From a virus (lineage: Duplodnaviria; Heunggongvirae; Uroviricota; Caudoviricetes), in IMG/VR virus record IMGVR_UViG_2713896896_000002, positions 1 through 6,915 of that record: DNA of 6,915 nt; one strand, written 5' to 3'. A model generated the notes under the pieces. It saw nothing but the letters and a program-made list of their open reading frames with translations, was not told the DNA's origin and searched no databases. The translations under genes and the position numbers were made by a program. This document shows, piece by piece, positions 179 to 6,296 of the stretch (the stretch's first letter is position 1; the number at the start of each line of letters is the position of its first letter).

Positions 179-598
179 TTATGACGCGTTTTGTGCTTTC
201 TTTTTACGGATTTCTTCGTAGATCATATTGTAATACTGTTTTTTCTCTTCAAGAGTTTTTAATAAGTTATCCGTTTCACTTTCTGGCAGTTCGTCTAAGA
301 GATCTAAAAAAATACGTTGTCGTGGCGTTAGAACCCTTGTTTCATAATTGGAGGCTGTGTTCGTTGATGATGAAACGATACCATCCATCCATCCCCGGGG
401 TAACCCAAAGGACTCTTCGATAATCTCCACCATATCATCAGCGATCCGTTTTTTTCCTTTTTTCCCCTCTGGGTACAACATTCTTGATACATAAGAAGGC
501 TCGCGACCGATCTTTCTGGCCACGTTAACCGCTTTACCATCGCATTTCTCATCACGAATTTTGATGAGTTGCTGTCGTCTAAATTCATATTTGTCCAT
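179..598 (-). CDS. Prophage immunity repressor, XRE/Cro-CI family HTH, short form (139 aa) with no S24 peptidase domain
   Basis: ORF 179-640 on the minus strand. The HTH pattern (RRQQLIKIRDEK..GKAVNVARKIGREPSYVSRM...FGLPRGWMDG) fits XRE-family spacing if translation starts at Met15 (ATG = complement of 596-598); the longer ORF would start at 640 inside an operator. No Ser/Lys autocleavage domain: the protein ends about 80 aa after the HTH. Divergent from a cro-like gene, as for RacR/YdaS. No obvious SD for either start. Confidence 0.75.
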   Translation of the reverse strand: MDKYEFRRQQLIKIRDEKCDGKAVNVARKIGREPSYVSRMLYPEGKKGKKRIADDMVEIIEESFGLPRGWMDGIVSSSTNTASNYETRVLTPRQRIFLDLLDELPESETDNLLKTLEEKKQYYNMIYEEIRKKKAQNAS

Positions 599-699
599 AG
601 GTAAATAATAGATGCGATTACCGCAAGGTAAACAACCCATAGGTATTGACTTTTGTTTACCTGTGGGTATTCTTGACCGTAGTTTACTAAGGAGTAGCC
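599..699. promoter_or_regulatory. OR-like divergent control region: operator sites TACCGCAAGGTA (619-630, degenerate), AACCCATAGGTA (634-645), TACCTGTGGGTA (658-669); rightward promoter -35 TTGACT (646-651), -10 TATTCT (668-673)
   Basis: Three copies of the TACC-N4-GGTA palindrome lie between the divergent repressor and cro-like genes. A sigma70-like -35/-10 pair with 16-bp spacer overlaps site 658-669, and an AAGGAG Shine-Dalgarno (689-694) precedes the cro ATG at 700. The leftward repressor promoter was not confidently located. Confidence 0.6.
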
Positions 700-1413: not shown

Positions 1414-2376
1414 ATGAGCAGCAAGCTTCATGGTCTTGTCTGGGAAGGGTGTGCCTTCACCGGCATGATCTTATCCAGGGTGGCAGTGATGGCTCGTCTT
1501 GCAGACTACAGCAATGATGAAGGTGTGTCATGGCCTGCAGTAGAGACCATTCGTCGTCAGATTGGGGCAAAGAGTGAATCAACGGTTAAAGCGGCGATAG
1601 CGGAACTGGAAAAAAGCGGCTGGCTGACAAAGGAAGAGCGTAAGGTTGGCGGACGTAACGTAAGCAATATCTACCGGCTTAATGTGGAAAAACTCGAAGC
1701 TGCAGCAGCGGCGGCGCGAGAGGCATATAAACCGAAAAGAAAAATTAGCCCGGCAAAAAATGACCCGTTAACGGTTGACCCGTCAAATATTGACCCCTCA
1801 ACGGTTGACCCGTCAAATTTTGATGGATCAACCGTTGATAAAAAACGGTCGGTTAGGGGGGCGATGATTGACCCCGATCCGTCAGTATTAAAATCTGATC
1901 CATCAGATAAAAGATCTTCTTGTCCGGACGCTTCGCAACCGGACCCGCAGACGGCTGAACAGGATTTTTTTACCCGACACCCTGATGCGGTTGTGTTCAG
2001 TGCGAAAAAACGCCAGTGGGGAAGTCAGGAAGATTTGGCGTGCGCACAGTGGATCTGGGGACGAATCGTGAGTCTTTACGAGCAGGCGGCCAGCGATGAT
2101 GGCGAGATCACGCGACCGAAAGAACCAAACTGGACCGCGTGGGCCAATGACGTGCGCACAATGCGGATGCTGGATGGCAGAACTCACAGACAAATTTGCG
2201 AAATGTTTGGGCGGGTACAGCGGGATCCATTCTGGGTAAAAAACATCATGAGCCCGTCAAAGCTCCGCGAAAAATGGGACGAACTGGTCATCCGCCTGGG
2301 GCGTTCACCTGTACAGCGTTGTGTGAATCATATTTCTGAACCGGACACCGAAATTCCTCCGGGGTTCAGGGGGTAA
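1414..2376 (+). CDS. Replication initiation protein (lambda O analogue) with N-terminal winged-helix DNA-binding domain and DnaT-like C-terminus
   Basis: 320-aa ORF. The N-terminal region (VSWPAVETIRRQIGAKSESTVKAAIAELEKSGWL) looks like a winged helix. The C-terminal SEPDTEIPPGFRG closely matches the C-terminal end of E. coli DnaT as I recall it. Internal iterons encode a repetitive DPSNIDPSTVDPSNFDGSTVD linker. The gene is directly followed by a dnaC homologue, mirroring the host dnaT-dnaC operon. No clear SD for the ATG at 1414. Confidence 0.8.
   Translation: MSSKLHGLVWEGCAFTGMILSRVAVMARLADYSNDEGVSWPAVETIRRQIGAKSESTVKAAIAELEKSGWLTKEERKVGGRNVSNIYRLNVEKLEAAAAAAREAYKPKRKISPAKNDPLTVDPSNIDPSTVDPSNFDGSTVDKKRSVRGAMIDPDPSVLKSDPSDKRSSCPDASQPDPQTAEQDFFTRHPDAVVFSAKKRQWGSQEDLACAQWIWGRIVSLYEQAASDDGEITRPKEPNWTAWANDVRTMRMLDGRTHRQICEMFGRVQRDPFWVKNIMSPSKLREKWDELVIRLGRSPVQRCVNHISEPDTEIPPGFRG
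1760..1831. repeat. Iteron array inside the replication gene: five copies of TTGAYNNNTCAA-type 12-mer at 15-bp periodicity
   Basis: Copies at 1760-1771 (degenerate), 1775-1786, 1790-1801, 1805-1816 and 1820-1831. There is an exact 19-bp direct repeat AACGGTTGACCCGTCAAAT at 1770-1788 and 1800-1818. Each unit is an inverted repeat, TTGAC-CC-GTCAA. Confidence 0.75.
1832..1920. other. Putative origin unwinding region: A/T-rich tract with clustered GATC sites adjacent to the iterons
   Basis: GATAAAAAACGG followed by GATCCGTCAGTATTAAAATCTGATCCATCAGATAAAAGATCTTCT. GATC at 1876-1879, 1897-1900 and 1913-1916, with a direct repeat GATCCRTCAG. The layout parallels the lambda origin lying inside gene O. 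Confidence 0.55.
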
Positions 2377-2382
2377 CGAACC

Positions 2383-3129
2383 ATGAAAAATATTGCGACA
2401 GGCGGCGTTCTGGAACGTATCCGCAGACTGACCCCGCCACATGTAACCGCCCCATTCAGAACGGTAGCGGAGTGGCGCGAGTGGCAACTTGCTGAAGGCC
2501 AGAAGCGTAGCGAGGAGATCAACCGCCTGAATCGCCAGTTGCGGGTGGAAAAAATTCTGAATCGCTCAGGCATCCAGCCGTTGCACCGTAAATGCTCGTT
2601 TGCGAATTACCATGTACAGAACGACGGCCAGCGATACGCGTTAAGTCAGGCGAAATCCATCGCTGATGAACTGATGACCGGATGCACAAATTTCGCGTTC
2701 AGCGGAAAACCTGGTACCGGAAAAAACCATCTGGCGGCGGCTATCGGGAATCGCCTGCTGAAAGACGGCCAGACAGTGATAGTGGTTACTGTGGCTGATG
2801 TTATGAGTGCCCTGCACGCCAGCTATGACGACGGGCAGTCAGGCGAAAAATTTTTGCGGGAACTGTGCGAAGTGGATCTGCTGGTTCTTGATGAAATTGG
2901 CATTCAGCGTGAGACGAAAAACGAGCAGGTGGTGCTGCATCAGATTGTTGATCGCCGGACAGCATCGATGCGCAGTATGGGGATGCTGACAAACCTGAAC
3001 TATGAGGCCATGAAAACGTTGCTCGGCGAGAGGATTATGGATCGCATGACCATGAACGGCGGGCGCTGGGTGACTTTTAACTGGGAAAGCTGGCGCCCGA
3101 ATGTCGTCCAGCCAGGAATCACGAAGTGA
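2383..3129 (+). CDS. DnaC-family helicase loader (lambda P-position replication protein), AAA+ ATPase
   Basis: Walker [18 protein letters not shown] and Walker [10 protein letters not shown]. Strong end-to-end resemblance to E. coli DnaC as recalled (N-terminal MKN..., RSGIQPLH, C-terminal [22 protein letters not shown]...[10 protein letters not shown]). SD AGGGGG 9 nt upstream of the ATG. Confidence 0.92.
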
Positions 3130-3151
3130 TTTTTACCGGGAGGAAATTTTA

Positions 3152-3913
3152 ATGGAGACTGTTTTTGACGCACTGAAAGCGATGGGAAAGGCCACATCCA
3201 TAGAACTTGCTGCGCGACTTGATATCAGTCGTGAAGAGGTACTGAATGAGCTGTGGGAACTGAAAAAATCTGGTTTCGTTGATAAAACCGCGTACACCTG
3301 GCGTGTGGCTGGTAGCAATGCTCAGCAGGAACAAGCATCCCGGGCTGAATTTCATGAAGAAACTACCACGGCAACAGTAGCGAAAATCTCAGAGTGCGAT
3401 TTAACGGCGACGATTGAACAACGCGGACCACAAACGGCTGATGAGCTGGCTACGCTGTTCGGTATCACATCACGCAAAGTGGCTTCAACGTTGGCTCAGG
3501 CAATCAGCAAAGGTCGCCTGATTCGCGTAAATCAGAACGGTAAATTTCGTTACTGCATGCCGGACGATAATTTACCAGCAGAGCCGAAAGCCGCATTGGT
3601 AACGGAAACAGATGGTAAAGCCTTTCCTCAGCCAGCAGGTGTTGCGTTACCAGCACAGGAAACTGTAACACAGGAAGAAATTAAAACAGAAACTGTGGCG
3701 GACATTGTGCAGTCGCTGCCATCGTTCACCGAAACGCGGGCGGATGACCTGATTTTACCATCGCTGCATCTGGCAAACCGCGAACTGCGCCGGGCGAAAA
3801 ATCATGTCCAGAAGTGGGAGCGCGTCTGCGCCGCGCTGCGGGAGCTGAATAAACACCGGGATATTGTCCGACAGATTGTCGATTCCTCCAGTCGCGTTGT
3901 GTCGGAAAGGTGA
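3152..3913 (+). CDS. Hypothetical phage protein with two winged-helix-like repeats and a charged, probably coiled-coil C-terminus (253 aa; possibly DUF1627-like)
   Basis: Start placed at ATG 3152 because of SD GGGAGG at 3138-3143; the track ORF from 3101 would overlap dnaC-like. Two similar HTH-like segments ([30 protein letters not shown] and [32 protein letters not shown]). The family name is a tentative recollection. Confidence 0.7.
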
Positions 3914-3920
3914 GGCACTT

Positions 3921-4337
3921 ATGAGAAACGTTTTTACACCTGAATATCGGGAGCAACTGAAGGCGCGTATTGTGGAACTGGTGCGCAGAGATGGGAGGAA
4001 AACACGTAAGCAACTGGAGGATGAAACCGGAGCAACGAGACACCTGATAGAAGTTCTGGCGAAAGAGCTGGTAGTTAGTGGCACGCTATATGGTTCAGGC
4101 CATGGAATATTTCCTTCAGAACAGGCTCGTAAGGACTGGATAAAAGCCTGCAAAAAAATGTCGAGAGCGGCAGTGAAAAAGAAGAGCGACCCTGACCTGA
4201 TTTATTCATTGCCAGATGGTGAAATACGCCGTTACAACAGGAGACAGAACATAATTTGCCGAGAGTGCCGTCAGAGCGAAACTATGCAGCGCGTGCTGGC
4301 TTTCTGGAAGGGAAGTTTGCAGGAGGTGGTACTGTGA
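3921..4337 (+). CDS. Hypothetical protein (138 aa), basic, with N-terminal HTH-like segment
   Basis: Start at ATG 3921 with SD AAGGTGAGG (3907-3915) 5 nt upstream; the track start 3864 lacks an SD and overlaps the upstream gene. Tightly linked to the preceding ORF (7-nt gap), suggesting co-translation in one operon. Confidence 0.65.
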   Translation: MRNVFTPEYREQLKARIVELVRRDGRKTRKQLEDETGATRHLIEVLAKELVVSGTLYGSGHGIFPSEQARKDWIKACKKMSRAAVKKKSDPDLIYSLPDGEIRRYNRRQNIICRECRQSETMQRVLAFWKGSLQEVVL

Positions 4338-4464
4338 GCCAAATTAACAATCAGGACTGCGTGAAGTGAAAGAGAAAACATAATTCAAATCTGAATAATT
4401 AATCTCAGCACTGTAAATAAAATTTAATCCTTAACAGGAGGGATTCCTGCACCCTCAAAACATC

Positions 4465-4498
4465 AGGAGGCCGCCCGAAAGGGCGGTAATGAAAAATG
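4465..4498 (+). promoter_or_regulatory. Structured translation-initiation leader: SD AGGAGG (4465-4470), hairpin CCGCCC-GAAA-GGGCGG (4471-4486), start ATG 4496
   Basis: Perfect 6-bp GC stem with GAAA tetraloop sits exactly between a consensus SD and the start codon. Linear spacing is 25 nt, but about 9 nt if the hairpin is formed. A second weaker hairpin GAGGG-N9-CCCTC lies at 4438-4456. Confidence 0.5.
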
Positions 4499-4903
4499 AC
4501 TGAATTAACAAAAGAGCAATTAATCGAAGAAGCTAAATTAAAAATAGCGATTGCGAAATGCCACCCCAATTCAGGGGTGGCACGAGTAGAGGGTGAGTTA
4601 TTCAAAATTGCTCTGGCATCGCTGGAAGCAGAGCCGATAGCGTGGGAATACGGCGAAAACATAATCCTGTTTAATCCTGACACAGTTGAAGCATACGCAA
4701 AACGTGCAGAGATAACACCTAAACCTCTATTCACCGCTACACCTGTGTCACTGACACCAGAAGGATTGATTAAAGCAGTGCGTTTCTATGAACAGGTTAA
4801 GCGTGAAAATCCGCCAGTCGAAACCGGAGCATGGAAAGACGCGGTTGACTGGGTGCTCAAAGAGGCCTGTCGTGCAGCCATGCTTAAGGGAGATAAATCA
4901 TGA
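4496..4903 (+). CDS. Hypothetical protein (135 aa)
   Basis: Clean ORF. Its stop overlaps the next start in an ATGA arrangement (4900-4903). Preceded by a 158-bp AT-rich intergenic region and the structured leader. No family recognised. Confidence 0.65.
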   Translation: MTELTKEQLIEEAKLKIAIAKCHPNSGVARVEGELFKIALASLEAEPIAWEYGENIILFNPDTVEAYAKRAEITPKPLFTATPVSLTPEGLIKAVRFYEQVKRENPPVETGAWKDAVDWVLKEACRAAMLKGDKS

Positions 4904-5247
4904 TTAATCGAACCAAACTGGAGCACATCCTTGAGTATGCCTGGCAGCAGAGGCATTTGGGTCAGCACTGTAAAATTCCACCAGGAGATATGGTTGAAAT
5001 CGTGGAGATTGCCATGCGTAAGACTGGCAACTCTCCGGTAACTTCGGGCGGTTGGATAAGCTGTAGTGAGCGAATGCCAGGTGATGGTCAGCACGTAATT
5101 ATTTTATGTGATGGCGCATTCGTTCTTCATGCGCAATATCGAGACGGTGAGTTTTTCGATATTGTCCGCAATGGTAATGAATTTTTTGAAACACAGAGCC
5201 GCAATGTAACCGACTGGATGCCGCTACCAGAACCACGAAGGAGGTGA
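4900..5247 (+). CDS. DUF551-like phage protein (115 aa)
   Basis: C-terminal pattern GGWISCSERMPGDGQHVIILC...DGEFFDIV...VTDWMPLPEP matches my recollection of the DUF551 signature (W..P....V.....g....DWMPLPEP). Start overlaps the upstream stop, suggesting translational coupling. Confidence 0.65.
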   Translation: MINRTKLEHILEYAWQQRHLGQHCKIPPGDMVEIVEIAMRKTGNSPVTSGGWISCSERMPGDGQHVIILCDGAFVLHAQYRDGEFFDIVRNGNEFFETQSRNVTDWMPLPEPRRR

Positions 5248-5610: not shown

Positions 5611-5659
5611 TGCTGCGGGTGCTTGAGGCTATCTGTCTCAGGCATGAACACCAAAAGGC

Positions 5660-5750
5660 AGATAGAGAAAAGCCCCAGTTAACATTACGCGTCTTGCAGG
5701 ACGCTTAACATTAATCTGAGGCTCAATCCATGCTGAACACATGTAGGTTA
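5660..5750 (-). ncRNA. Expected position of a Sok-like antisense RNA overlapping the hok leader / mok-like start (boundaries not resolved)
   Basis: Inferred from the hok-family architecture. Candidate minus-strand promoter: -35 TTGCCT (complement of 5768-5773), -10 TAACCT (complement of 5745-5750). I could not identify a clean terminator, so the extent is approximate. Confidence 0.3.
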
Positions 5751-5786
5751 GCCTCTTACGTGCCGAAAGGCAAGGAGAAGCAGGCT

Positions 5787-5942
5787 ATGAAGCAGCAAAA
5801 GGCGATGTTAGTCGCCCTGATCGTCATCTGTTTAACCGTCATTGTTACGGCACTGGTAACGAGGAAAGACCTCTGCGAGGTACGAATCCGAACCGGTCAG
5901 ACGGAGGTCGCTGTCTTCACAGCTTACGAACCTGAGGAGTAA
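5787..5942 (+). CDS. hokD: Hok/Gef-family type I toxin (51 aa), closest in my recollection to HokD (RelF)
   Basis: MKQQKAMLVALIVICLTVIVTALVTRKDLCEVRIRTGQTEVAVFTAYEPEE carries the Hok signature (TM helix then RKDLCEVRIRTGQTEVAVFTAYE). SD AAGGAGAAG at 5772-5780. An in-frame upstream ATG at 5730 (track ORF 5730-5942) may play a mok-like coupling role. Confidence 0.85.
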   Translation: MKQQKAMLVALIVICLTVIVTALVTRKDLCEVRIRTGQTEVAVFTAYEPEE

Positions 5943-5950
5943 GAGACCAG

Positions 5951-6005
5951 GCGAGGGAGAAATCCCTCGCCACCTCTGATGAGTCAGGCATCCTCAACGC
6001 ACCCG
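5951..6005 (+). other. hok mRNA 3' structures: hairpin GCGAGGGA-GAAA-TCCCTCGC (5951-5970) and fbi-like element CCTCAACGCACCC (5993-6005) complementary to the mRNA 5' end (5617-5628)
   Basis: The 3' element is the reverse complement of GGGTGCTTGAGG at the predicted 5' end, with one bulged base. This is the hallmark 5'-3' closure of full-length hok mRNAs. The hairpin is a perfect 8-bp stem with GAAA loop. Confidence 0.6.
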
Positions 6006-6296
6006 CACTTACAACCGATGGCGCACGATACCAAATTATACAATTCTGATGATTCTGCCGTCTTTGCCAGCAGGCGCGGACGGTGTTTTCACGCATTCAA
6101 ATCTGACTGGTACCAGCATCCCCCATGCACTGAAGAACAGGCCGAATGGATAATTCAGTGTTACCGCAGGCGCGGATGCGAGGTTAAAAAAGCCCTTAGC
6201 CTCGACTACCGTCACTGGATAATCTCCGTCAGGCTCCCTTACTCCGAACGGCCGCCGCGTCCGTCCCGCACATTCCAGCAACGGATCTGGAGGTAA
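5979..6296 (+). CDS. Hypothetical protein, possibly Rem-like (Qin-prophage position between hokD and ydfU); 105 aa, or 92 aa from ATG 6018
   Basis: ORF with plausible protein-like composition (FKSDWYQHPPCTEEQAEWIIQCYRRRGCEVKK). Gene order matches hokD-rem-ydfU as I recall for E. coli K-12 Qin. No SD for either candidate start; the 5979 start would lie inside the hok mRNA 3' end. Confidence 0.5.
   Translation: MSQASSTHPHLQPMAHDTKLYNSDDSAVFASRRGRCFHAFKSDWYQHPPCTEEQAEWIIQCYRRRGCEVKKALSLDYRHWIISVRLPYSERPPRPSRTFQQRIWR

What the first reader, a model, noticed from the sequence alone, without database searches (positions are those of the whole stretch)
3152..4337. Two co-oriented unknown genes directly after the helicase loader: tandem winged-helix protein plus small basic protein
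The 253-aa protein has two HTH-like repeats, a Pro/Thr/Glu-rich linker and a charged C-terminus. The 138-aa protein follows after a 7-nt gap with its own SD. This is the ren/nin position of lambdoid phages, where replication accessory and exclusion functions are found. A DNA-binding duo of unknown role here could act in replication control, as an antirepressor, or in exclusion.
Basis: partly seen in the sequence, partly recalled or inferred. Interest (0 to 1): 0.5.

Follow-up and report, generated by a model that had tools for sequence, protein, structure and literature searches.

The report
YdaW and Ren-like prophage genes
The two genes after the helicase loader are real but already catalogued prophage genes, a YdaW-family double winged-helix protein and a long relative of phage lambda's Ren protein; they are very common in E. 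coli prophages and their biochemical role is still unknown.

Summary
ORF1 (3152-3913, 253 aa) and ORF2 (3921-4337, 138 aa, pI 9.9) are co-oriented, 7 nt apart, each with its own Shine-Dalgarno sequence, and both are under purifying selection (dN/dS 0.16-0.24).

They are not unknown genes. ORF1 is a full-length DUF1627/YdaW protein (Pfam E 3e-95). ORF2 is DUF977/LygF (E 1.6e-27) and falls in the same PHROG family as lambda Ren (phrog_142: ORF2 4e-38, Ren 1.6e-41). A profile-profile comparison with Ren gives 95.7% probability over a shared C-terminal motif.

The AlphaFold models show two winged helices, two disordered acidic linkers and a C-terminal helical hairpin in ORF1. ORF2 has one winged helix plus a Ren-type tail.

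The window is a Rac-type immunity and replication region. Both families always sit at the distal end of lambdoid replication modules, whatever the initiator or loader type, and they are usually but not always adjacent. The pair occurs in 937 of 5426 complete E. coli genomes.

Most likely, by inference, they are accessory proteins of the replication module with a Ren-like anti-exclusion role. No biochemical function is known. Verdict: ordinary and already catalogued; modest interest.

The parts
3138..3144 (+). Shine-Dalgarno sequence (GGGAGGA) of ORF1, 7 nt before the ATG
   Evidence: read directly from the sequence
3152..3913 (+). ORF1: YdaW-family protein, 253 aa (DUF1627, phrog_630)
   Evidence: PF07789 E 3.2e-95, 316.6 bits against a cut-off of 28.1. 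phrog_630 E 2.5e-127 over the full length. 88% identical to K-12 YdaW over residues 1-151. dN/dS 0.24.
3152..3316 (+). ORF1 winged helix 1 (aa 1-55); the most conserved part of the family (L34 and W50 invariant)
   Evidence: AlphaFold2 pLDDT 88-96, pattern H-H-H-E-E. Alignment A1. Weak hits to TrmB, HTH_20 and MarR_2, all below the Pfam cut-offs.
3389..3565 (+). ORF1 winged helix 2 (aa 80-138)
   Evidence: AlphaFold2 pLDDT 91-94. Weak match to the Ren-like phrog_142 (8.8e-6). Weak matches to ADAR1 Z-alpha and Z-beta and to AspA in the PDB sequence search.
3566..3739 (+). ORF1 acidic Pro/Thr/Glu/Ala-rich disordered linker (aa 139-196), ending in the conserved [IL]-P-x-F-T motif
   Evidence: pLDDT about 41 over 142-180. 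Composition and pI 4.2. The motif column is conserved in A1.
3740..3910 (+). ORF1 C-terminal helical hairpin (aa 197-253): the family-defining module, a probable oligomerisation or partner-binding domain
   Evidence: Helices 205-234 and 236-252 with pLDDT 88-97. On its own it hits only DUF1627 (1.1e-40). It is kept in family variants that carry one, two or three winged helices.
3907..3915 (+). Shine-Dalgarno sequence (AAGGTGAGG) of ORF2, overlapping the ORF1 stop codon
   Evidence: read directly from the sequence. The ORF1-ORF2 gap is 7-16 nt in 133 of 135 related loci.
3921..4337 (+). ORF2: DUF977/LygF protein, 138 aa; a long-form homologue of lambda Ren
   Evidence: PF06163 E 1.6e-27. phrog_142 E 4e-38 over the full length; lambda Ren hits the same family at 1.6e-41. 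BLASTP against Ren E 7e-8. dN/dS 0.16-0.21.
3939..4112 (+). ORF2 winged helix (aa 7-64), followed by a basic helix (aa 67-86, nt 4119-4178)
   Evidence: AlphaFold2 pLDDT 93-96. Foldseek finds only generic GntR- and MarR-type winged helices.
4236..4319 (+). ORF2 C-terminal Ren-type motif (aa 106-133: N-R-R-Q-N-I-I-C-R-E-C-R-Q-S-E-T-M-Q-R-V-L-A-F-W)
   Evidence: hhalign of the DUF977 profile against the Ren profile: probability 95.7%, E 1.1e-8, 27 columns. The AlphaFold2 model has low confidence here.
2383..3129 (+). Context: DnaC-type helicase loader (YdaV-like), the gene immediately upstream
   Evidence: NF009043 E 5.7e-152. phrog_50 E 2e-83.
1414..2376 (+). Context: O-like replication initiator carrying origin-type iterons at 1749-1838
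   Evidence: phrog_391 E 1e-114. Five copies of a repeat with 15-nt spacing.

Best explanation
The two ORFs are the last two genes of the early rightward (pR-type) operon's replication module in a Rac-type lambdoid prophage, probably from Escherichia albertii. The gene order is RacR-like repressor, YdaS, YdaT, O-like initiator with its origin, DnaC-type loader, YdaW-family protein (ORF1), then Ren-like DUF977 protein (ORF2).

Shown:
- Both are expressed-type, selected genes.
- ORF1 has two small winged-helix heads on flexible acidic linkers, plus a conserved C-terminal helical hairpin.
- ORF2 has one winged helix, a basic helix and the C-terminal motif it shares with lambda Ren.
- Both families are found at the distal end of initiator-loader modules, whatever the initiator or loader type.

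Inferred:
- ORF2 does what Ren does in lambda. It is a non-essential accessory of the phage replication complex that stops the phage's own O/loader-dependent replication from being aborted by exclusion or abortive-infection systems (RexAB in the case of lambda).
- ORF1 is an oligomeric, multi-headed nucleic-acid-binding or protein-binding adaptor acting at the same step, either on replication intermediates or on a host or defence factor.
- The two act as independent modules that are often, but not obligatorily, paired.
For: Identity. Pfam, PHROG and NCBIfam hits. Annotated orthologues ydaW-lygF in phage Rac-SA53 and 'DUF1627 / Ren-like exclusion protein' in Shigella phage POCJ13. Near-identical proteins from E. 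albertii.

Link to Ren. Both proteins fall in the same PHROG family over their full length. BLASTP gives E 7e-8. hhalign gives 95.7% probability and E 1.1e-8.

Structure. AlphaFold2 models.

Synteny.
- All 79 evaluable close ORF1 loci have ORF2 next, and 69 of 77 have the DnaC-type loader upstream.
- Of 75 ORF2 loci, 54 follow ORF1, 14 follow the loader directly and 7 follow the initiator directly (phages HannyBb and mEp460).
- In the five look-ups of distant DUF1627 genes (25-53% identity) where upstream genes were visible, the gene lies at the distal end of the replication module. It sits directly after an IstB/DnaC-type loader in two loci (L250, L252) and after a lambda-P-type loader in one (L251). 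In the L248/L249 prophage it follows a Ren-like gene that itself follows the initiator. In L247 it follows an unannotated 266-aa gene. The sixth locus (L246) has no upstream sequence. Downstream neighbours vary.
- In L248 the order is initiator, Ren-like protein, DUF1627 protein, so the pair is kept in reversed order.
- The gap is 7-16 nt in 133 of 135 loci.

Literature.
- Lambda ren mutants are Rex-sensitive, with suppressors in O and P. Ren interacts with RexA and RexB in two-hybrid assays. Ren is said to accompany all initiator-loader modules (supplement of bioRxiv 10.1101/2021.04.19.439022).
- Over-expressed K-12 ydaW was a screen hit that blocked the retron-Sen2 toxin RcaT (bioRxiv 10.1101/2020.06.22.160242). 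The K-12 form carries only the two winged helices.
Against: - No biochemical function is known for Ren, DUF977 or DUF1627, so the mechanism is argued by analogy and position only.
- Significant similarity between ORF2 and Ren in direct comparison is limited to 27 C-terminal columns. Lambda Ren does not reach the DUF977 Pfam model. Foldseek against viral models did not recover Ren.
- The pair is not obligate. The PPompW phages and the distant relatives, except the L248/L249 prophage, have DUF1627 without DUF977.
- No Rex-like system lies in the window.
- ydaW as a retron blocker is an unvalidated over-expression hit with a truncated protein.
- No binding site for either protein was found in the window.
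Confidence: 0.5

Rival explanations
1. Both proteins are ordinary sequence-specific transcription regulators of the MarR/ArsR/GntR winged-helix type. They would control delayed-early or host genes, or act as antirepressor-like factors, and their position after the replication genes would be incidental.
For: Both proteins give many weak hits to winged-helix transcription-factor families: TrmB, HTH_20, MarR and ArsR. Foldseek finds MarR, GntR and AraR DNA-binding domains. K-12 YdaW is listed among predicted transcription factors (PMC9308461).
Against: Every transcription-factor family hit is below its curated cut-off. Neither model shows the MarR or ArsR dimerisation helices. No palindromic or repeated candidate operator is associated with the genes. 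The tie to the end of replication modules across unrelated initiator and loader types is hard to explain for a general regulator.
Confidence: 0.2
2. They are stand-alone anti-defence proteins that bind and neutralise host toxins or sensors directly (for example retron RcaT or RexA/B), with no role at the replication fork. The winged helices would then be protein-binding or DNA-mimicking surfaces.
For: ydaW was a blocker hit for RcaT toxicity. Ren interacts with RexA and RexB in two-hybrid assays. PHROGs files the Ren-like family under 'moron, auxiliary metabolic gene and host takeover'. The long acidic linkers of ORF1 are reminiscent of DNA-mimic segments.
Against: The ydaW hit was not followed up. 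Suppressors of ren map to O and P, which points to the replication complex. There are no significant hits in PADLOC. Anti-defence genes are usually highly variable in position, whereas these have a fixed slot.
Confidence: 0.2
3. The winged helices of ORF1 are Z-alpha-type domains that recognise left-handed or otherwise unusual nucleic-acid structures formed at the replicating phage origin.
For: The DUF1627 profile's best PDB sequence hits are ADAR1 Z-alpha and Z-beta, ZBP1 and PKZ Z-alpha domains (summed E 1.5e-8; single-domain E 0.0083 and 0.28). The fold is the same minimal one, with an invariant wing tryptophan in winged helix 1.
Against: The Z-DNA contact residues Asn173 and Tyr177 are not conserved in either winged helix (by my own mapping of the A1 alignment onto ADAR1 numbering; the ADAR1 residue roles and the identity of the 2l54 mutant are from memory). 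The profile matches the ADAR1 Z-alpha chain 2l54, whose sequence as printed has Ala at both positions, better than it matches the wild-type domain. The Pro-Pro wing motif is absent. AspA, ArsR and MarR proteins score similarly.
Confidence: 0.03

Closest known systems
Bacteriophage lambda Ren (96 aa; gene ren directly after O and P)
   Same: ORF2 and Ren fall in the same PHROG family (phrog_142) over their full length. Both have an N-terminal winged helix and the C-terminal motif N-x-[IV]-x-x-E-C-R-x-S-x-x-M-x-R-V-L-A. Both are the gene that closes the replication module in the pR operon.
   Different: ORF2 is 42 residues longer, with an extra basic helix and a beta-hairpin between the winged helix and the tail. 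Lambda Ren does not reach the DUF977 Pfam model. Here ORF2 is separated from the loader by ORF1, and the loader is DnaC-type rather than P-type. Protection from Rex is untested.
YdaW of the E. coli K-12 Rac prophage (b1361) and ydaW of phage Rac-SA53
   Same: ORF1 is 88% identical to K-12 YdaW over residues 1-151 and sits in the same place after ydaV. Rac-SA53 has the full-length orthologue followed by lygF.
   Different: K-12 YdaW is a deletion remnant that lacks the second linker and the C-terminal helical domain. The window's copy is intact.
LygF / DUF977 (PF06163) proteins of Escherichia, Shigella and Salmonella prophages
   Same: ORF2 matches the Pfam model over its full length (2-134 of 134). 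It is 60-70% identical to the LygF proteins of Rac-SA53, POCJ13, mEp460 and HannyBb.
   Different: None of substance; ORF2 is simply a member. The name LygF is positional and implies no function.
Tandem winged-helix proteins (ScpB, ESCRT-II subunits, SelB WH2-4)
   Same: Two consecutive small winged helices. These are the best Foldseek PDB matches (ScpB E 3.9e-4).
   Different: TM-scores are only 0.2-0.33. In ORF1 the two winged helices are separated by a disordered linker rather than packed together. There is no sequence similarity, and those proteins have no equivalent of the C-terminal DUF1627 hairpin.
Z-alpha / Z-beta domains of ADAR1, ZBP1 and PKZ
   Same: The same minimal alpha1-beta1-alpha2-alpha3-beta2-beta3 fold, and the best PDB sequence similarity for winged helix 2.
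   Different: The residues that contact Z-DNA are not conserved. In that respect ORF1 resembles the non-binding Z-beta domain or the ADAR1 Z-alpha chain 2l54, which has Ala at both positions.

Membership tests
DUF1627 (PF07789) / YdaW family | Match to the Pfam model above the gathering score and over the whole model | tested here: met
   E 3.2e-95, 316.6 bits against a cut-off of 28.1; residues 88-242 cover model positions 1-155 of 155. phrog_630 E 2.5e-127 over 1-249.
DUF1627 (PF07789) / YdaW family | Family architecture: N-terminal winged helix or helices, a variable acidic linker, an I-P-x-F-T motif and a C-terminal helical domain | tested here: met
   Alignment of 47 members at 21-89% identity. 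AlphaFold2 model.
DUF977 (PF06163) / LygF | Match to the Pfam model above the gathering score and over the whole model | tested here: met
   E 1.6e-27, 96.6 bits against a cut-off of 22.1; residues 2-134 cover model positions 2-134 of 134.
Lambda Ren family (phrog_142, 'Ren-like exclusion protein') | Sequence homology to lambda Ren | tested here: met
   ORF2 hits phrog_142 at 4e-38 and lambda Ren hits it at 1.6e-41. BLASTP E 7e-8. hhalign 95.7% probability, E 1.1e-8 over 27 C-terminal columns. Caveat: lambda Ren does not hit PF06163.
Lambda Ren family (phrog_142, 'Ren-like exclusion protein') | Gene placed at the distal end of the initiator/helicase-loader module in the pR operon | tested here: met
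   Window layout. Of 75 related loci, 54 have ORF2 after DUF1627, 14 directly after the loader and 7 directly after the initiator. Lambda layout.
Lambda Ren family (phrog_142, 'Ren-like exclusion protein') | Confers resistance to Rex (RexAB) exclusion; interacts with RexA and RexB | not testable with these tools
   This is a genetic phenotype known only for lambda. It needs plating assays of deletion phages.
Z-alpha (Z-DNA/Z-RNA-binding) domain | Conserved contact residues: Asn173 and Tyr177 in helix 3 and the Pro-Pro-x-Trp wing (ADAR1 numbering) | tested here: not met
   By my mapping, winged helix 2 has Ala at both the Asn and Tyr positions, and winged helix 1 has Leu at the Asn position. 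Only the wing Trp of winged helix 1 is kept. The residue roles are from established knowledge of ADAR1 Z-alpha.
MarR/ArsR/TrmB-type transcription repressors | Score above the curated family cut-off and the family's dimerisation helices | tested here: not met
   All such Pfam and NCBIfam hits are below cut-off, for example MarR_2 at 19.9 against 27 bits and ArsR NF033788 at 23.2 against 55. The models show bare winged helices without flanking dimerisation helices.
Known anti-phage defence system proteins (PADLOC) | Significant match to a defence-system model | tested here: not met
   Only weak hits from winged-helix-containing models (best E 1.3e-4, a CARF-associated HTH).

The most novel reading that the evidence does not exclude
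DUF1627/YdaW and the Ren-like DUF977 protein together form a widespread phage 'replication-shield' module, with matches in about half of complete E. coli genomes. The multi-headed winged-helix protein and the Ren-like protein would coat or mask the phage's replication intermediates, or the initiator-loader complex, so that sensors of abortive-infection systems (RexAB, retron toxin-antitoxin systems and others) are not triggered. That would give Ren, unexplained since 1980, a mechanism and a large family.
Probability: 0.2. Interest if true: 0.65.

Novelty: already known. Interest (0 to 1): 0.27.

Why it matters
Practically, the result turns an 'unknown duo' into two named families, and it shows that the small protein is a long-form Ren.

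Ren's mechanism has been open for over forty years. Matches to the two-gene stretch occur in about half of complete E. coli genomes, often in several copies, including in Stx-converting phages.

If the replication-linked anti-exclusion role were confirmed, these genes would be a common determinant of which prophages can replicate in hosts that carry abortive-infection systems. As it stands, nothing here departs from what databases already record.

Tried and rejected
- Fold searches gave only generic winged-helix or tandem winged-helix matches and no specific family: ORF1 against the PDB, ORF2 against the PDB and ORF2 against BFVD viral models. Lambda Ren was not recovered structurally.
- PADLOC gave nothing significant.
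- NCBIfam gave no family for ORF2 and only sub-threshold HTH hits for ORF1.
- Pfam scans of the isolated C-terminal segments returned only their own DUFs.
- hhalign of ORF1 against ORF2 aligns winged helix 2 with the ORF2 winged helix, but not significantly (E 0.047, probability 1%). A common origin of the two genes is therefore not shown.
- The Z-alpha reading was considered because of the PDB sequence hits. It was rejected on the contact residues.
- The repeat search found no operator or iteron associated with the two genes. The promoter and terminator scan found none between the loader and the end of ORF2 on the + strand.
- The genome-contig scans (an exact 47-mer, then peptide patterns) found nothing, so the source species rests on the best protein hits (E. 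albertii).
- Thomason & Court 2022 (PMC9529316), on Ren, is not held in the library.
- The lambda Ren search in IMG/VR returned only near-identical copies.

Full report
**Observation.** The window encodes, on the + strand, ORF1 (ATG 3152 to TGA 3913, 253 aa) and ORF2 (ATG 3921 to TGA 4337, 138 aa). They are 7 nt apart. GGGAGGA at 3138-3144 precedes ORF1. AAGGTGAGG at 3907-3915 precedes ORF2 and overlaps the ORF1 stop codon. The longer frame from 3101 is not used, because every homologue starts METV.... No promoter-like or terminator-like site on the + strand lies between the loader gene and the end of ORF2. ORF2 is basic (pI 9.9). ORF1 is mildly acidic overall (pI 5.9), with an acidic Pro/Thr/Glu/Ala-rich linker and a charged C-terminus. 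Against orthologues in phage Rac-SA53 and Shigella phage POCJ13, dN/dS is 0.16-0.24 for both genes.

**Context.** The window is the immunity and replication region of a Rac-type lambdoid prophage. In order it holds:
- a RacR-like repressor (179-640, minus strand; phrog_5736);
- a YdaS/Cro-like gene (700-981);
- a YdaT/CII-like gene (965-1390);
- an O-like initiator (1414-2376; phrog_391, E 1e-114), with five copies of a repeat spaced 15 nt apart at 1749-1838, as in lambdoid origins;
- a DnaC-type helicase loader (2383-3129; NF009043, E 5.7e-152);
- downstream, unknown nin-type genes and a hok/sok locus.

The best protein hits are from Escherichia albertii (ORF2 99% identical). No complete E. 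coli genome holds the whole window at high identity.

**Identity of ORF1.** It is a full-length member of DUF1627 (PF07789, E 3.2e-95; phrog_630, E 2.5e-127). This is the YdaW family. ORF1 is 88% identical to K-12 YdaW over residues 1-151, after which the K-12 protein diverges at the known Rac deletion. The family is narrow: 182 cluster representatives at E ≤ 0.001 among 1.84 billion proteins.

An alignment of 47 members at 21-89% identity and the AlphaFold2 model (mean pLDDT 75.9, above 90 in the folded parts) give this architecture:
- winged helix 1, residues 1-55;
- a disordered stretch, 57-73;
- winged helix 2, residues 80-137;
- a disordered acidic linker, 142-180;
- a conserved [IL]-P-x-F-T motif;
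- a helical hairpin, 205-252.

Family variants carry one, two or three winged helices but always the C-terminal module. That module hits nothing except DUF1627. Foldseek finds only generic tandem winged-helix proteins (ScpB E 3.9e-4, TM 0.2-0.33).

In a PDB sequence search, winged helix 2 resembles the Z-alpha and Z-beta domains of ADAR1, ZBP1 and PKZ. The Asn and Tyr residues that contact Z-DNA are replaced, and the profile matches the ADAR1 chain 2l54, which has Ala at both positions, better than it matches the wild-type domain. I therefore reject membership in that family.

**Identity of ORF2.** It is a full-length DUF977 protein (PF06163, E 1.6e-27), annotated LygF or 'Ren-like exclusion protein' in phage records. 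ORF2 and lambda Ren both match phrog_142 over their full length (4e-38 and 1.6e-41). Direct BLASTP gives E 7e-8. A profile-profile comparison of 51 DUF977 proteins with 19 Ren proteins gives 95.7% probability and E 1.1e-8 over 27 C-terminal columns (N-x-I-x-x-E-C-R-x-S-x-x-M-x-R-V-L-A-x-Y). The model shows a confident winged helix (7-64) and a basic helix (67-86), with a low-confidence C-terminal part. Caveats: lambda Ren does not reach the DUF977 Pfam model, and fold searches did not recover Ren.

**Synteny.**
- In IMG/VR, all 79 evaluable close relatives of ORF1 have an ORF2 homologue next to them, and 69 of 77 have the DnaC-type loader upstream.
- Of 75 loci holding ORF2 relatives, 54 have ORF1 upstream, 14 follow the loader directly and 7 follow the initiator directly. 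Phages HannyBb and mEp460 show the last arrangement.
- The ORF1-ORF2 gap is 7-16 nt in 133 of 135 loci.
- DUF1627 occurs without DUF977 in the PPompW phages.
- In the distant relatives (25-53% identity) with visible upstream genes, DUF1627 still lies at the distal end of the replication module. It sits directly after an IstB/DnaC-type loader in two loci and after a lambda-P-type loader in one. In the L248/L249 prophage it follows a Ren-like gene that follows the initiator. It is followed by unrelated genes such as Ead/Ea22, RdgC-like, Rrf2-like and DUF1367.
- In that L248/L249 prophage the order is therefore initiator, Ren-like protein (phrog_142, E 7e-13), DUF1627 protein, so the pair is kept but reversed.
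- The two-gene stretch matches with at least 80% coverage in 937 of 5426 complete E. coli genomes. Some match is present in 2769 genomes, at up to eight places per genome.

**What is known.** Ren has a genetic phenotype only. Lambda ren mutants grow poorly on Rex-positive lysogens, and suppressors map to O and P. Ren interacts with RexA and RexB in two-hybrid assays. Ren-type genes are said to accompany all initiator-loader modules. The authors state that Ren's function is unidentified (supplement of bioRxiv 10.1101/2021.04.19.439022). DUF977 was recognised as a winged helix in 2009 (PMC2686095). Over-expressed K-12 ydaW appeared among the blockers of the retron-Sen2 toxin RcaT in a genome-wide screen, without follow-up (bioRxiv 10.1101/2020.06.22.160242). 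That allele holds only the two winged helices. No paper in the library assigns a function to DUF1627.

**Mechanism.**
- Shown: both are selected, co-transcribed early genes with winged-helix domains, fixed at the end of the replication module.
- Inferred: ORF2 works like Ren, as a dispensable accessory at the phage replication complex that keeps the phage's own replication from being aborted by exclusion systems. ORF1 is an oligomeric, multi-headed adaptor acting on DNA or on a protein at the same step.
- I give this about 0.5 overall. The identity part is near certain. The mechanism part is about one in three.
- Rivals are plain transcription regulators (0.2), stand-alone anti-defence binders (0.2) and Z-alpha-like structure readers (0.03).

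**Novelty and verdict.** Both genes are already catalogued as families, the Ren link is already in PHROGs and RefSeq annotation, and near-identical proteins are in public databases. What this analysis adds:
- the direct Ren comparison;
- the domain map of YdaW;
- the rule that both families occupy the 'ren slot' across different replication-module types;
- the finding that the pairing is frequent but not obligate.

Interest is modest. It comes only from the prevalence of the genes and from the unsolved function of Ren.

Noticed in passing
window 1749-1838: Five overlapping copies of a repeat with 15-nt spacing (TTGACCCGTCAAAT-like), plus nested inverted repeats, lie inside the O-like initiator gene. 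At protein level they encode a DPS/T-rich repeat. This looks like the phage origin of replication, as in lambda.
   Followed up: partly
window 5617-5942: A hok/sok-type toxin-antisense locus. Rfam sok (RF01794) matches at 5617-5792 with 118.9 bits, E 2e-27. A 70-aa mok/hok-like reading frame lies at 5730-5942.
   Followed up: partly
window 605-673: An inverted repeat (616-635 and 653-672) and divergent promoter-like hexamers lie between the RacR-like repressor gene (179-640, minus strand) and the YdaS-like gene (700-981). This is the probable operator and promoter region of the immunity switch.
   Followed up: no
window 3389-3565 (ORF1 winged helix 2): The best PDB sequence matches of the DUF1627 profile are eukaryotic Z-alpha and Z-beta domains (ADAR1, ZBP1, PKZ). 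The profile fits the ADAR1 Z-alpha chain 2l54, which has Ala at the Asn173 and Tyr177 positions, better than wild type, so the Z-DNA contact residues are missing.
   Followed up: yes
L248 3662-4729 (also L249): In a prophage whose DUF1627 protein is 53% identical to ORF1, a 109-aa Ren-like protein (phrog_142, E 7e-13) lies upstream of the DUF1627 gene instead of downstream. The two families are neighbours in the reverse order.
   Followed up: partly
proteins P0246 and P0258: Two chimeric proteins join the N-terminus of a replication initiator (replisome-organiser or DUF1376 type) to the C-terminal part of DUF1627. They are probably deletion derivatives in decaying prophages, like the K-12 Rac ydaW remnant, rather than natural fusions.
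   Followed up: no
window 4338-4495: A 158-nt AT-rich intergenic stretch follows ORF2. It holds a GC-rich hairpin (GCCGCCC-GAAA-GGGCGG, about 4463-4478) just before the start of the next gene (4496). The hairpin scores as terminator-like only on the minus strand.
   Followed up: no
L250 4792-5937: In one distant relative the DUF1627 gene is followed by a gene with RdgC and FtsK-gamma domains. RexA is reported to be structurally related to RdgC (PMC11077077), and rdgC was a retron trigger in the Bobonis screen. This may be coincidence.
   Followed up: no
window 4496-5247 and 5979-6296: Three downstream nin-region genes of unknown function: phrog_660 (4496-4903), a DUF551 protein (4900-5247, PF04448 E 1.2e-17) and phrog_1212 (5979-6296).
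   Followed up: no
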